This document shows, piece after piece, positions 25,666 through 28,899 of a stretch of 64,000 nucleotides of DNA. Source of the stretch: Escherichia phage vB_EcoM_G2133; sequence record MK327928.1, one strand, 5' to 3'. The position numbers and the translations under genes were made by a program. Under the pieces are notes generated by a model that worked only from the letters and a program-made list of their open reading frames with translations, was not told where the DNA came from and searched no databases. Within the stretch, counting starts at the first letter, position 1. Each line of letters opens with the position of its first letter.

Positions 25666-26247
25666 CTAACCGAGCTTTTTAGTTAATTCATTCCAATGTT
25701 TTCTACACAAAGAAACATAAATTTCATCACCAATACAGATTTGATTACCTTCTTTAACTGGTGTTCCATCTTCCATTAATCGAGCTGTCATAATCGCTTT
25801 TTTGCCGCAATGACAAACTGCCTTTAGTTCAATAAGTTTATCTGCAATCGCCAAAAGTTCTTTAGAACCTTCAAACAATTTTCCAGCGAAATCAGTCCTT
25901 AGACCATAAGCCATAACAGGAACATTATATGTATCAACAATTCGACTTAATTGATGCACCTGTTCAGTTTTTAAAAACTGAGCTTCATCTACAAATACGC
26001 AATGAATATCTTTTTGTGCTTCAGCCCATTTATAGAACTCAAAAATATCCATATCATCTGTAATAATATTCGCTTCCTGTTTAATTCCAATGCGAGAAAC
26101 GACTTCGCAGACAGAATCGCGAGTATCAATAGCAGGCTTAAGAACTAATACACTCATTCCACGCTCTTTATAATTATGCGCAGCAGTCAAAAGAGAAGCA
26201 GATTTTCCAGCATTCATTGCTGCATAAGTAAAAATTAAACTCGCCAT
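25666..26247 (-). CDS. tk: Thymidine kinase
   Basis: 193 aa; P-loop NAGKS and Zn-ribbon cysteines (CHCGKK...CRKH); matches T4 Tk. Confidence 0.9.
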   Translation of the reverse strand: MASLIFTYAAMNAGKSASLLTAAHNYKERGMSVLVLKPAIDTRDSVCEVVSRIGIKQEANIITDDMDIFEFYKWAEAQKDIHCVFVDEAQFLKTEQVHQLSRIVDTYNVPVMAYGLRTDFAGKLFEGSKELLAIADKLIELKAVCHCGKKAIMTARLMEDGTPVKEGNQICIGDEIYVSLCRKHWNELTKKLG

Positions 26248-26256
26248 ATCACCTTC

Positions 26257-26442
26257 TTAAAGCGTATTCACATAAGCTATTAATTCGTTTTCTTTCTTAT
26301 CAAACCGATCAGCAAATTCTTCCTGCTGTTCGGGAGATAACGGGCCGTATTCATCATAAAAGGTGTTTGCTTCTGTATGCTCATCTAGAAGTTCATGGAT
26401 AAGCTCAAACAATTTATCTTTTTGTTCTTTTCTTAGACTCAC
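26257..26442 (-). CDS. Hypothetical small acidic protein
   Basis: 61-aa ORF; apparent GTG start. Confidence 0.35.
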   Translation of the reverse strand: MSLRKEQKDKLFELIHELLDEHTEANTFYDEYGPLSPEQQEEFADRFDKKENELIAYVNTL

Positions 26443-26611
26443 AGTATGTCAATCCCCAAAAGTTTTAAAATGACTCGTTTCTGATTCATAACCGCTACGA
26501 TTGAATGACCGTTAGGGTCTTTTTGACCCGATCCAATTATAAATCCTTTTTGTGCAGAAAGTTCAATCAAAACATCAAGTTCACGTAATAATTGATATTT
26601 TAAATCATCAT

Positions 26612-26824
26612 TCATTTTGGTTTGCCTTCTTTAACGAAATCAGGATAAGGATAAAATCCCGAATAAAATCCTTCACCTTTATGATTGATGCATCCTTTAT
26701 TAGAACAATAGCACCAATAATCGAAATCACAAGCCATTTCATCATTACATAAAGCAAAAACAACAGGCCATTTACACTTTTCACAATGGGCATTTTTAAG
26801 AATACTAGTTTGGCTCATAACCAT
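26612..26824 (-). CDS. Hypothetical Cys-rich small protein
   Basis: Start at the ATG at 26824; cysteine pairs CEKC...CNDEMAC...CYC...GC. Confidence 0.4.
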   Translation of the reverse strand: MVMSQTSILKNAHCEKCKWPVVFALCNDEMACDFDYWCYCSNKGCINHKGEGFYSGFYPYPDFVKEGKPK

Positions 26825-27027
26825 GTAACCTTTAAGCAATATTCTTCTACGTGCTGTTTACGACCTTTCTTATCAATAAAGGTATATTCAACGAATGTTC
26901 CAATGTAGTCTTTATCTACATCATGTGGACTATTAATTGGACATTTAGTACGGCAAATGCGTTCCCATTGACGGATAATTACTGCCTTATTCTTTGGGTC
27001 ATACGGATGTGGATAATGTATATTCAT
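26815..27027 (-). CDS. Hypothetical small protein
   Basis: Start at the ATG at 27027, overlapping the macro-domain gene stop (ATGA). Confidence 0.4.
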   Translation of the reverse strand: MNIHYPHPYDPKNKAVIIRQWERICRTKCPINSPHDVDKDYIGTFVEYTFIDKKGRKQHVEEYCLKVTWL

Positions 27028-27491
27028 AATAATGGTTCCCAATCAACAATCACAATTTCTAATTTAGAAGAATATGTATCTAAAATCCCCTCAATAATAT
27101 CCCAGTTCCCTTTACCTATGCCTGCACCAATCCTAGGCATATAGATTGTAGGTTTAATCAGTTTATTTTCACCAAACTCATTTAATTCTAACATACAATT
27201 CATTAAAGCGGAATACTCAAAATTTGGCCCTGGTTGAAATTGAGTATAAAGGTTGAAGCAATACGCTTTATGAGTCCTAAAGTATTTTTCATAGACTGAG
27301 TAAGAACCGAGTTTAGTTACATCACCCCATTCAGTCTGTAATTTATCAGCTTCCAAAATTTTAGGGAAAGCTTTGGTTAATTGACCTGCGACTCCAGCTT
27401 TCATCGTGTGAAAACAATTACATCCATGCGCAATATTTTTACCTTCAGCGAAAAGGGCGACAATATCGCCCTTAATATATTTTACAATCAT
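27024..27491 (-). CDS. Macro-domain (ADP-ribose binding/processing) protein
   Basis: 155 aa; N-terminal GDIVALFAEGKNIAHGCNCFHTMKAGVAGQ and glycine-rich IGAGIGKGNWD resemble macro-domain signature regions. Confidence 0.55.
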   Translation of the reverse strand: MIVKYIKGDIVALFAEGKNIAHGCNCFHTMKAGVAGQLTKAFPKILEADKLQTEWGDVTKLGSYSVYEKYFRTHKAYCFNLYTQFQPGPNFEYSALMNCMLELNEFGENKLIKPTIYMPRIGAGIGKGNWDIIEGILDTYSSKLEIVIVDWEPLL

Positions 27492-27835
27492 CTAGTACTC
27501 AATCCTCGATTATAAGAATCTACCAAACGGTCAACCATTGAATGACAAGCGGCTTTATCTTTCTCCTCCGCAACTGAGCATTCTAAGGTATTCCACTTTT
27601 TAGCATATCGTTTTAACAATGTATCGTTTTTGTATCTGCTTGATTTATCTCTTTCTCCGTCTTTATATGCATATATTAATTTCTGCGCAAATTCAGCTTG
27701 GCATGCTTTATTTTTCCCACAATAATCTGCCGCAGTGCGGTTTACATATTCTCTAATTTCAGTATATGATGTATCTGCTGACGCAGAAGCAGAAAATGAA
27801 ATTAATCCTATACATAAAACCAAAATTTTAGTCAT
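27488..27835 (-). CDS. vs: Vs (valyl-tRNA synthetase modifier), secreted/periplasmic-type
   Basis: 115 aa with an N-terminal signal peptide; size and position match T4 vs. Confidence 0.6.
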   Translation of the reverse strand: MTKILVLCIGLISFSASASADTSYTEIREYVNRTAADYCGKNKACQAEFAQKLIYAYKDGERDKSSRYKNDTLLKRYAKKWNTLECSVAEEKDKAACHSMVDRLVDSYNRGLSTR

Positions 27836-28373
27836 TTACTATTTCCAAAAGTTTATTATTTTTAAGGTAGTTAGCCTTTTCTAGGACTTCAGAAGCATAT
27901 TTAGAACCTGCTTTAACATTCCATCCCGAATTATAAGAGGATATTGCTTTTCTTATATCACCCTTATGTATATTTAACCAATAAGAAAGTTCAATGTACG
28001 CCCAGGAAGCTGAATTGGATCGTTTATTCAACATTCTTTTTATTTCAGCATCGGTCATATTATAACCAAGTTCCTTAACTCTCGCTCGCATAGTAGGCAA
28101 ATAATTTTGGAACATTCCGTAGGCGTGATGCTTTGGTTTAGATTTTAAATTAACTCCGCCAGAGCTTTCTTGCCATAAAATAGCAGCCATTATATGACCT
28201 AATCCGCTCTTGTGGATATTTTTGTGTGTTTTATATTTTCCATCCTTAGAAAATTGTTCCCCGAATTGATACGCGTAACGCATGTTATCGAGTTGGACAT
28301 TACTGAAAGTATGCTCGGAGCTATGTGCCATCATTGAAATGGCCAATAGACCAGCGAGTAGTGCTTTTCTCAT
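27828..28373 (-). CDS. Lytic transglycosylase-like protein (vs.1 position) with signal peptide
   Basis: 181 aa; signal peptide MRKALLAGLLAISMMAHS; AAILWQESSG resembles the catalytic E-S motif of lytic transglycosylases. Confidence 0.55.
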   Translation of the reverse strand: MRKALLAGLLAISMMAHSSEHTFSNVQLDNMRYAYQFGEQFSKDGKYKTHKNIHKSGLGHIMAAILWQESSGGVNLKSKPKHHAYGMFQNYLPTMRARVKELGYNMTDAEIKRMLNKRSNSASWAYIELSYWLNIHKGDIRKAISSYNSGWNVKAGSKYASEVLEKANYLKNNKLLEIVND

Positions 28374-28869: not shown

Positions 28870-28899
28870 ATTATACCACAGTCAAGAGGAAAAGTAAAC
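28870..28899 (-). promoter_or_regulatory. T4-type early promoter upstream of regB
   Basis: GTTTAC, 18 nt, TATAAT on the minus strand. Confidence 0.5.

What the first reader, a model, noticed from the sequence alone, without database searches (positions are those of the whole stretch)
27024..27491. Macro-domain protein encoded immediately upstream of tk
ORF 27024..27491 has macro-domain-like signature regions (GDIV...NIAHGCNCFHTMKAGVAGQ; IGAGIGKGNWD). Macro domains bind or hydrolyse ADP-ribose conjugates. T-even phages encode ADP-ribosyltransferases and face ADP-ribose- or NAD-based host defences, so this is a candidate modulator of ADP-ribosylation or NAD-derived signalling during infection.
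Basis: partly seen in the sequence, partly recalled or inferred. Interest (0 to 1): 0.45.

Follow-up and report, generated by a model that had tools for sequence, protein, structure and literature searches.

The report
T4-type tk.4/adfM macrodomain gene

Summary
The ORF 27024..27491 is real. It lies on the minus strand, encodes 155 aa, and is the Tequatrovirus gene tk.4. It is 153/155 identical to T4 Tk.4 and sits in the same vs–tk.4–tk.3 arrangement.

It is not immediately upstream of tk. Four small ORFs and 776 nt lie between them.

The A1pp/macro assignment for tk.4 dates from 2006. A November 2025 preprint showed that deleting T4 tk.4 makes T4 sensitive to DarTG2, and renamed the gene adfM.

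What I add:
- The family is not DarG-type. The catalytic Lys of DarG and TARG1 is an invariant Gln here (Q84), as in Streptomyces SCO6735. SCO6735 removes thymidine-linked ADP-ribose from DNA by a Gln-dependent, Lys-independent mechanism.
- This window's allele differs from T4 through a 22-nt mosaic patch. It changes G31-S32 to K31-A32 in the GxG substrate loop, and that allele has not been tested.

Verdict: already known, low interest.

The parts
27024..27491 (-). tk.4 / adfM coding sequence, 155 aa, a stand-alone macrodomain
27488..27491 (-). ATGA overlap of the vs stop codon with the tk.4 start codon (likely translational coupling). A GAGGA Shine-Dalgarno-like motif lies 11 nt upstream of the ATG.
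   Evidence: Read directly from the sequence. The coupling itself is inferred.
27024..27027 (-). ATGA overlap of the tk.4 stop codon with the tk.3 start codon
   Evidence: Sequence. tk.3 start placed by coordinate transfer from the AR1 annotation.
27414..27428 (-). Motif H22-G-C-N25-C26. N25 corresponds to SCO6735 N27, TaqDarG N22 and PhiKZ gp104 N23. H22 corresponds to SCO6735 H24 and Poa1p H23.
   Evidence: N25 is present in 120/121 and 142/142 family members; H22 in 116/121 and 135/142. Alignments. Mutagenesis of the equivalent residues is reported in PMC9411070, PMC5179494 and PMC13309987.
27387..27408 (-). 22-nt mosaic patch over codons 28-35, covering the first ADP-ribose-binding ('GxG') loop. 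It gives M30-K31-A32-G33 where T4 has M-G-S-G.
   Evidence: 10 of the 16 nucleotide differences from T4 tk.4 fall here. No 22-nt window held that many in 100,000 random placements. Position 31 is G in 103/121 members and K in 6/121. In the 142 sequences (141 representatives plus the query) it is G 113, S 9, K 5, R 5.
27240..27254 (-). Motif N80-L-Y-T-Q84. Q84 occupies the position of the catalytic Lys of TARG1 (K84) and DarG (K80), and of the essential Gln85 of SCO6735.
   Evidence: hhalign against the DarG set puts Q84 opposite K (probability 98.6). hhalign against SCO6735/BT1257/ALC1 puts N80 opposite N81 and Q84 opposite Q85 (probability 98.4). Q84 is invariant in 121/121 and 142/142 sequences.
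27102..27137 (-). Second (diphosphate-binding) loop P119-R-I-G-A-G-I-G-K-G-N-W130. It matches SCO6735 P123-RIGCGLAGGTW-134 and includes G124, which corresponds to SCO6735 G128.
   Evidence: Translation checked. Alignments. P119, I121, G122 and G124 are (near-)invariant.
27488..27835 (-). Upstream neighbour vs (valyl-tRNA synthetase modifier). Context only.
26815..27027 (-). Downstream neighbour tk.3 (DUF7202). Context only.

Best explanation
The ORF is the T-even phage gene tk.4 (adfM). It is a one-domain macrodomain enzyme made from the co-directional regB–vs.1–vs–tk.4–tk.3 gene string.

Proposed mechanism:
- The host DarT2 toxin ADP-ribosylates thymidines in single-stranded phage DNA, which blocks replication.
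- Tk.4 binds the ADP-ribose moiety in its macrodomain cleft, formed by the loops M30-K-A-G33 and G122-A-G-I-G-K-G128.
- It then hydrolyses the ribose–thymine bond. This restores the DNA and makes the phage resistant to DarTG2.

The chemistry is most likely that proposed for Streptomyces SCO6735, not that of DarG or TARG1. There is no nucleophilic or catalytic lysine. An invariant Gln (Q84), held in place by an invariant Asn (N25), positions the distal ribose, and an activated water starts the cleavage.

Shown:
- The DarTG2 phenotype of T4 Δtk.4 (preprint).
- Thymidine-ADP-ribose hydrolysis by SCO6735 and its dependence on Gln85 and Asn27 (paper).

Inferred:
- That Tk.4 itself hydrolyses thymidine-linked ADP-ribose.
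- That it uses the Gln mechanism.
- That the K31/A32 allele in this window keeps the activity.
For: Orthology: 153/155 identity to T4 Tk.4 with identical synteny.

Genetics for the T4 protein: tk.4 was the single significant hit in a transposon screen on a DarTG2 host. A clean knock-out sensitised T4 to DarTG2. T2 and T4 lacking adfN, and T4 lacking both adfA and adfN, remain DarTG2-resistant, which had predicted a further factor.

Mechanism: Q84 aligns with DarG and TARG1 Lys and with SCO6735 Gln85. Q84, Y82 and N25 are invariant in 121 and in 142 sequences. SCO6735 removes thymidine-linked ADP-ribose. Its Q85A mutant is dead, and N27S and K34E are nearly dead on DNA.

Expression: T2 Tk.4 protein was detected by proteomics.
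Against: - No biochemical assay of T4 Tk.4 is reported. The preprint only says enzymatic removal 'seems likely'.
- The genetic evidence is from a preprint and from T4, not from this phage.
- This allele replaces the first Gly of the GxG loop with Lys. That is a minority state in the family, 6 of 121 clusters.
- Tk.4 lacks the SCO6735 lysines K34 and K89 that help position DNA. Position 32 is Ala, and the 'mobile loop' is shorter in Tk.4.
- SCO6735 Q85A also inhibits DarT by interaction, so a non-catalytic contribution is possible.
- In two unrelated phages, distant family members sit in NAD+ salvage gene clusters. This hints at small-molecule substrates in at least part of the family.
Confidence: 0.8

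Rival explanations
1. Tk.4 protects against DarTG2 mainly without catalysis. It would bind and inhibit DarT2, or shield ADP-ribosylated DNA, rather than hydrolyse the adduct.
For: Catalytically dead SCO6735 Q85A still inhibits DarT in vitro, more strongly than DarG or TARG1 mutants. Full-length DarG K80A also inhibits DarT. No hydrolysis assay exists for Tk.4.
Against: Every residue needed for SCO6735 catalysis that can be aligned (N25, Q84, G124) is invariant across hundreds of diverged family members. That is the pattern expected of an enzyme. The TaqDarG macrodomain alone carrying K80A does not inhibit DarT. Tk.4 has no extra DarT-binding domain, since the macro fold fills all 155 aa.
Confidence: 0.07
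2. The primary substrate is a small ADP-ribose derivative rather than DNA. Candidates are ADP-ribose-1''-phosphate (as for Poa1p, hence the 'phosphatase' annotation), O-acetyl-ADP-ribose, or a defence-generated ADP-ribose signal or toxin. The product would feed NAD+/ADP-ribose metabolism.
Against: The only phenotype reported for tk.4 in T4 is DarTG2 sensitivity. T4-type phages lack the NamPT cluster next to tk.4. The 'phosphatase' label derives from an old domain name (A1pp), not from an assay. The position matching Poa1p S30 (T29 here) is variable in the family. The two activities are not mutually exclusive.
Confidence: 0.1
3. Tk.4 erases or tunes the modifications made by the phage's own ADP-ribosyltransferases (Alt, ModA, ModB) on host proteins or RNA.
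For: T-even phages do encode these enzymes. SCO6735 and TARG1 also act on protein ADP-ribose.
Against: The mapped Alt and ModA target sites are arginines: MazF Arg84 and RNA polymerase alpha Arg265. Arginine-specific macrodomains are exceptional; MavL is described as such (title and abstract). By my own knowledge, the TARG1 class acts on acidic residues and thymidine. The family is spread over 2,733 phage records of many genera, and I did not check whether those phages carry Alt/Mod homologues. No such phenotype is reported.
Confidence: 0.03

Closest known systems
T4 Tk.4 = AdfM (anti-DarT factor Macrodomain), bioRxiv 10.1101/2025.11.20.689424
   Same: Ortholog. 153/155 identical, same length, same vs–tk.4–tk.3 synteny with overlapping stop and start codons.
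   Different: Two adjacent residues in the GxG loop differ: T4 has G31-S32 and this window has K31-A32. The change comes from a 22-nt mosaic patch. The region between tk.3 and tk holds one more small ORF than in T4.
SCO6735 of Streptomyces coelicolor (PDB 5E3B) and BT1257 of Bacteroides thetaiotaomicron (PDB 2AFC/2FG1): 'Gln-type' ALC1-like macrodomains
DarG (DarG2) antitoxin macrodomain (T. aquaticus 5M31/5M3E, M. tuberculosis 5M3I) and PhiKZ gp104 'AdfM' (PMC13309987)
   Different: DarG and PhiKZ gp104 carry F-P-T-K with the essential Lys80, where Tk.4 has L-Y-T-Q. Tk.4 has no C-terminal DarT-binding domain and no adjacent darT. NCBIfam DarG scores 25 bits against a cut-off of 250. The two phage proteins both named AdfM therefore belong to different macrodomain subtypes.
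Human TARG1/OARD1 (PDB 4J5R)
   Same: Top Foldseek hit (E 4.9e-10, TM 0.74-0.81). Also removes thymidine-linked ADP-ribose.
   Different: The TARG1 catalytic dyad K84/D125 corresponds to Q84/G126 in Tk.4.
Yeast Poa1p, ADP-ribose-1''-phosphate phosphatase (PDB 6LFQ)
   Different: Poa1p has Ser rather than Gln at the position of Q84 in the HMMER alignment. Its substrate is a small molecule. No phosphatase assay exists for Tk.4.
T4 AdfN (30.3, NADAR) orphan-antitoxin counter-defence against DarTG1 (PMC11825919)
   Same: Same strategy: a phage carries a stand-alone ADP-ribosylglycohydrolase resembling the antitoxin of the defence system.
   Different: Unrelated fold (NADAR). Acts on guanosine adducts rather than thymidine adducts, and does not counter DarTG2.

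Membership tests
Macro domain superfamily (Pfam PF01661) | Profile match above the curated gathering score | tested here: met
   25.0 bits against a 22-bit cut-off, E 1.9e-5, residues 22-132 over profile positions 2-113 of 118.
Macro domain superfamily (Pfam PF01661) | Macro alpha/beta fold | tested here: met
Macro domain superfamily (Pfam PF01661) | Conserved GxG loop after the second strand, plus the glycine-rich diphosphate loop | tested here: inconclusive
   The second loop is intact (G122-A-G124-I-G-K-G128). The first loop reads K31-A32-G33: the second Gly is invariant, but the first Gly is Lys in this allele.
Macro domain superfamily (Pfam PF01661) | Binds ADP-ribose | not testable with these tools
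   Needs ITC, a crystal structure or a hydrolase assay.
AdfM as defined by T4 tk.4 (anti-DarTG2 factor) | Orthology to T4 tk.4 (sequence and synteny) | tested here: met
   99% identity. vs–tk.4–tk.3 order and overlaps conserved.
AdfM as defined by T4 tk.4 (anti-DarTG2 factor) | Needed for phage growth on a DarTG2 host | not testable with these tools
   Shown for T4 only, in a preprint.
Gln-type ALC1-like macrodomains (SCO6735/BT1257/ALC1) | Gln at the position of TARG1 K84 / DarG K80, held by the conserved Asn | tested here: met
   hhalign puts N80 opposite N81 and Q84 opposite Q85; MAFFT agrees. Q84 and N25 are invariant. The criterion comes from PMC9411070.
Gln-type ALC1-like macrodomains (SCO6735/BT1257/ALC1) | Lys in the GxG loop (SCO6735 K34) and an extended basic 'mobile loop' (K89, K93) for DNA positioning | tested here: not met
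   Position 32 is Ala (Ser in T4). hhalign needs gaps in Tk.4 across the SCO6735 86-94 loop. K31 is adjacent to the K34-equivalent position but not equivalent to it.
DarG antitoxin (NCBIfam NF048014 / PADLOC DarG) | Equivalog score cut-off | tested here: not met
   25.1 bits against a 250-bit cut-off, covering the macro part only (profile 2-146 of 338). The PADLOC DarG hit at E 1.1e-7 is also macro part only.
DarG antitoxin (NCBIfam NF048014 / PADLOC DarG) | Catalytic Lys80 in the F-P-T-K motif | tested here: not met
   L-Y-T-Q in Tk.4. K80A inactivates TaqDarG.
DarG antitoxin (NCBIfam NF048014 / PADLOC DarG) | C-terminal DarT-binding domain and an adjacent darT gene | tested here: not met
   The protein is 155 aa and is all macro fold. 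Its neighbours are vs and tk.3.
Poa1p-like ADP-ribose-1''-phosphate phosphatase ('phosphatase' annotation) | Structural and sequence similarity, including the H-x-C-N-C motif | tested here: met
Poa1p-like ADP-ribose-1''-phosphate phosphatase ('phosphatase' annotation) | Phosphatase activity on ADP-ribose-1''-phosphate | not testable with these tools
   No assay has been reported. The Poa1p structure paper is not in the library.

The most novel reading that the evidence does not exclude
Tk.4/AdfM is not a captured DarG antitoxin. It is a phage branch of the lysine-less, Gln-type macrodomains. The 22-nt mosaic patch that swaps G31-S32 for K31-A32 in the substrate loop is then an arms-race allele that changes what the enzyme can erase. 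That could mean different DarT2 variants, other nucleic-acid or protein ADP-ribose adducts, or small ADP-ribose derivatives, as hinted by family members embedded in NAD+ salvage clusters.
Probability: 0.12. Interest if true: 0.45.

Novelty: already known. Interest (0 to 1): 0.15.

Why it matters
DarTG systems block phage replication by ADP-ribosylating DNA. T-even phages appear to stack several antidotes: AdfA, AdfN against guanosine adducts and Tk.4/AdfM against thymidine adducts.

This finding only re-identifies the last of these. The practical gains are three:
- A corrected annotation: an ADP-ribosylglycohydrolase-type macrodomain, not a 'phosphatase' or 'thymidine kinase'.
- The point that T4 AdfM and PhiKZ AdfM share a name but use different catalytic residues (Gln versus Lys).
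- A natural loop variant (K31/A32) that would be a cheap specificity test.

Tried and rejected
- **BT1257 alignment.** The 13-sequence MAFFT alignment (A3) and the pairwise HMMER alignment placed BT1257 out of register around the N-x-x-x-Q motif. I did not rely on them for that protein. Profile-profile alignment and a smaller MAFFT alignment agree with each other and with the residue numbering in PMC9411070.
- **Bacterial relatives linked to a DarT toxin.** I looked for these to test an 'orphan antitoxin' origin. The two homologues labelled as bacterial MAG proteins lie on T4-like phage contigs with Rnl1, PNKP, a Dda-like helicase and dCMP deaminase. A 246-aa homologue lies on contigs where almost nothing is annotated, the only neighbour with a Pfam hit being cREC_REC. 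No DarT neighbour was found, so the origin stays open.
- **Promoters and terminators.** Promoter-like sites are no more frequent than in shuffled sequence (19 against 18.7). I make no promoter claim. The best site, TTTACT-17-TATAAT at 28898..28870 upstream of regB, is only a candidate.
- **Hairpin.** The hairpin at 27453..27473, inside codons 7-13, is not supported as unusual (z = -1.54).
- **Chance ORF or sequencing artefact at K31/A32.** Rejected. The change involves five nucleotide substitutions in two codons, is shared with phage AR1 and recurs in distant relatives.
- **Poa1p mechanism paper.** Not in the library.

Full report
**1. The observation**

Window 27024..27491 holds an ATG-started ORF of 155 aa on the minus strand.

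The gene sits in a tight co-directional string. Its ATG overlaps the stop codon of the upstream gene (ATGA at 27488..27491). Its TGA overlaps the start of the downstream gene (ATGA at 27024..27027).

The surrounding 2 kb is 98.6% identical to Escherichia phage vB_EcoM_G4498 and 98.2% identical to phage AR1. In all, 593 phage records cover at least 80% of it. The window therefore comes from a Tequatrovirus (a T4-type phage).

By coordinate transfer from the AR1 and T4 annotations, the ORF is tk.4. It is flanked by vs (valyl-tRNA synthetase modifier) and tk.3.

One detail in the finding is wrong. tk (25666..26247) is not the next gene. Four small ORFs and 776 nt lie between it and tk.4.

**2. 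Is it a macro domain?**

Yes, on every test available:
- Pfam Macro (PF01661) scores 25.0 bits, above the 22-bit gathering score.
- PHROG 335 matches at 1.4e-64.
- Sequence search of the PDB returns only macrodomains: BT1257 (2e-8), Poa1p, TARG1/OARD1, SCO6735 and DarG.
- An AlphaFold2 model built on 42 family members has mean pLDDT 94.6 and pTM 0.90.
- Foldseek against the PDB puts TARG1, Poa1p, DarG and BT1257 on top, at E 5e-10 to 3e-7 and TM about 0.7-0.8.

**3. What was already known**

- The protein is 153/155 identical to T4 Tk.4.
- The T4 RefSeq record already notes 'contains A1pp phosphatase motif'.
- Nolan et al. 2006 reported the A1pp domain in tk.4 orthologues (PMC1524935).
- Many GenBank records call the gene 'macro domain protein'.
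- A November 2025 preprint (HIDEN-SEQ, 10.1101/2025.11.20.689424) screened a T4 transposon library on a DarTG2-expressing host. tk.4 was the single significant hit. A clean knock-out sensitised T4 to DarTG2, and the authors renamed the gene adfM, 'anti-DarT factor Macrodomain'. They state that enzymatic removal of ADP-ribose from DNA 'seems likely' but show no assay.
- Earlier work had predicted such a factor. T2 and T4 lacking adfN, and T4 lacking both adfA and adfN, stay DarTG2-resistant (PMC11825919).
- Tk.4 protein is detected in the T2 proteome.

Both the observation and the general interpretation are therefore correct, and they rediscover known facts.

**4. Mechanism: which kind of macrodomain?**

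The preprint compares Tk.4 with DarG. I tested the defining DarG features and they are not met.
- The NCBIfam DarG equivalog scores 25 bits against a 250-bit cut-off, and only over the macro half.
- There is no second domain and no darT neighbour.
- The catalytic lysine is absent. In DarG the motif is F-P-T-K, and K80A inactivates TaqDarG (PMC5179494). The experimentally active PhiKZ gp104, also named AdfM (PMC13309987), has the same F-P-T-K.
- Tk.4 has L-Y-T-Q at the aligned position, by MAFFT and by profile-profile alignment (probability 98.6%).
- TARG1's second catalytic residue, D125, corresponds to G126.

This Gln has a precedent. Streptomyces coelicolor SCO6735 (PDB 5E3B) is an ALC1-like macrodomain with Gln85 at exactly this position.
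- It efficiently removes DarT-made thymidine-linked ADP-ribose from DNA and rescues cells from DarT.
- Q85A abolishes activity. N27S and K34E nearly abolish it on DNA, and G128E reduces it.
- The authors propose a water-initiated mechanism in which Gln85, locked by Asn27, positions the distal ribose (PMC9411070).

I recovered the SCO6735, BT1257 and ALC1 macro sequences from PDB alignments, and the numbering reproduces the paper's residues. The Tk.4 family profile aligns to them at 98.4% probability, with N80 opposite N81 and Q84 opposite Q85. A small MAFFT alignment agrees.

The second loop is nearly the same: PRIGAGIGKGNW in Tk.4 against PRIGCGLAGGTW in SCO6735.

Conservation in the family is as follows.

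| Position (window residue) | 121 sequences (query + 120 clusters at 90% identity) | 142 sequences (query + 141 representatives at 50% identity) |
|---|---|---|
| Q84 | 121/121 | 142/142 |
| Y82 | 121/121 | 142/142 |
| N25 | 120/121 | 142/142 |
| H22 | 116/121 | 135/142 |

My best reading is that Tk.4 works like SCO6735, through Gln-dependent and lysine-independent hydrolysis of thymidine-ADP-ribose. It is not a member of the DarG family.

There are differences from SCO6735 as well. Tk.4 lacks K34 (the x of GxG), K89 and K93, and it has a shorter loop after Q84.

**5. What is particular to this window**

The only two amino-acid differences from T4 are adjacent: G31K and S32A. They turn the canonical M-G-S-G loop into M-K-A-G.

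At the DNA level, 10 of the 16 differences from T4 tk.4 lie within 22 nt (27387..27408). The remaining 446 nt carry 6. No 22-nt window held that many in 100,000 random placements. Phage AR1 shares the patch.

Lys at position 31 is a minority state. It is found in 6 of 121 sequences, with G in 103. In the 142-sequence set the counts are K 5, R 5 and S 9. It recurs in distant members, so it is probably tolerated. The allele has not been tested experimentally.

**6. Distribution**

- tblastn finds the family in 2,733 of 50,697 phage records across many genera. One record, Escherichia phage BYEP02, has a 100% identical protein, and 36 records are at least 99% identical.
- A profile search of 1.84 billion representatives finds 17,002 proteins at E of 1e-3 or better, and 1,034 at 1e-30 or better.
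- Two homologues labelled as bacterial MAG proteins are in fact on T4-like phage contigs.
- In Acinetobacter phage Aci05 and Vibrio phage Gary, distant members (34% identity, N…Q kept, M-G-K/R-G loop) sit between ribose-phosphate pyrophosphokinase and nicotinamide phosphoribosyltransferase genes. This keeps a small-molecule or NAD-related role open for part of the family.

**7. Rivals**

- Non-catalytic DarT2 inhibition (about 0.07). SCO6735 Q85A inhibits DarT. However, the invariant catalytic-type residues point to an enzyme.
- A small-molecule ADP-ribose-derivative hydrolase as the main role (about 0.10). In favour are the Poa1p similarity, the NAD-cluster contexts and the argument of Iyer et al. 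2022. Against it, the only known phenotype is DarTG2 sensitivity.
- An eraser of Alt/ModA/ModB modifications (about 0.03). The mapped Alt and ModA target sites are arginine-linked, and no such phenotype is reported.

**8. Verdict**

The finding is real and correctly interpreted, but already known. The additions made here are the Gln-type rather than DarG-type classification, the fact that two phage proteins both named AdfM use different catalytic residues, and the mosaic K31/A32 loop allele. These are refinements, not a new kind of system.

Interest is 0.15. Confidence in the best explanation is 0.8.

Noticed in passing
window 27387..27408 (tk.4 codons 28-35): Short mosaic patch. It holds 10 of the 16 nucleotide differences from T4 tk.4, is shared with phage AR1, and changes the GxG loop from G-S-G to K-A-G. 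It looks like a small recombination tract or a diversifying site in the substrate loop.
   Followed up: partly
window 27453..27473 (minus-strand mRNA, tk.4 codons 7-13) and 27476..27515: A perfect 9-bp hairpin (AAGGGCGAUAUUGUCGCCCUU) lies just inside the coding region and is identical in T4 and AR1. A second predicted stem encloses the Shine-Dalgarno sequence and the ATG. The 81-nt fold is not significantly more stable than shuffles (z = -1.54).
   Followed up: partly
L008 904..4474 (Acinetobacter phage vB_AbaM_B09_Aci05); L009 3132..6162 (Vibrio phage Gary): Tk.4-family macrodomain genes lie between ribose-phosphate pyrophosphokinase and nicotinamide phosphoribosyltransferase genes, with RNA ligase genes nearby, in two unrelated phages. 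This suggests a link between this macrodomain family and phage NAD+ salvage.
   Followed up: partly
L003 and L004 (contigs of MAGs labelled Bacilli bacterium and Culicoidibacterales bacterium): Both contigs carry T4-type phage genes: PNKP, dCMP deaminase and Phage_Y01A on both; Rnl1, a Dda-like helicase and a T4 spanin on L003; an ATP-dependent DNA ligase and an SLT protein on L004. They are phage contigs binned into bacterial MAGs. On L003 the macro gene sits one gene downstream of Rnl1 and close to PNKP, and on L004 close to PNKP, which are RNA-repair genes.
   Followed up: no
window 26257..26824, compared with L002 3347..3717 (T4): The stretch between tk and tk.3 is plastic. T4 has tk.1 and tk.2. 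This window, like AR1, has three small ORFs, including a DUF7438 protein and a 'Phage zinc binding domain' protein (PF23895).
   Followed up: no
L001 and L002 annotations; window 27024..27491: Misannotations propagated from gene names. mobD.1 and mobD.5 (AR1) and mobD.4 (T4) are labelled 'molybdopterin-guanine dinucleotide biosynthesis protein MobD'. T4 tk.3 is labelled 'Tk.2'. tk.4 is labelled 'phosphatase' in RefSeq and 'putative thymidine kinase' in a 2026 preprint on T2.
   Followed up: no
window 27828..28373 (vs.1): vs.1 matches the SLT lytic transglycosylase domain just above the Pfam cut-off (25.1 against 21.3 bits) and starts with a signal-peptide-like hydrophobic segment. vs (27488..27835) also begins with a signal-like hydrophobic stretch.
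   Followed up: no
literature: PhiKZ gp104 versus T4 Tk.4: Two groups independently named two different phage macrodomains 'AdfM'. PhiKZ gp104 is Lys-type (F-P-T-K, DarG-like) and T4 Tk.4 is Gln-type (L-Y-T-Q, SCO6735-like). The shared name hides a difference in catalytic residues.
   Followed up: yes
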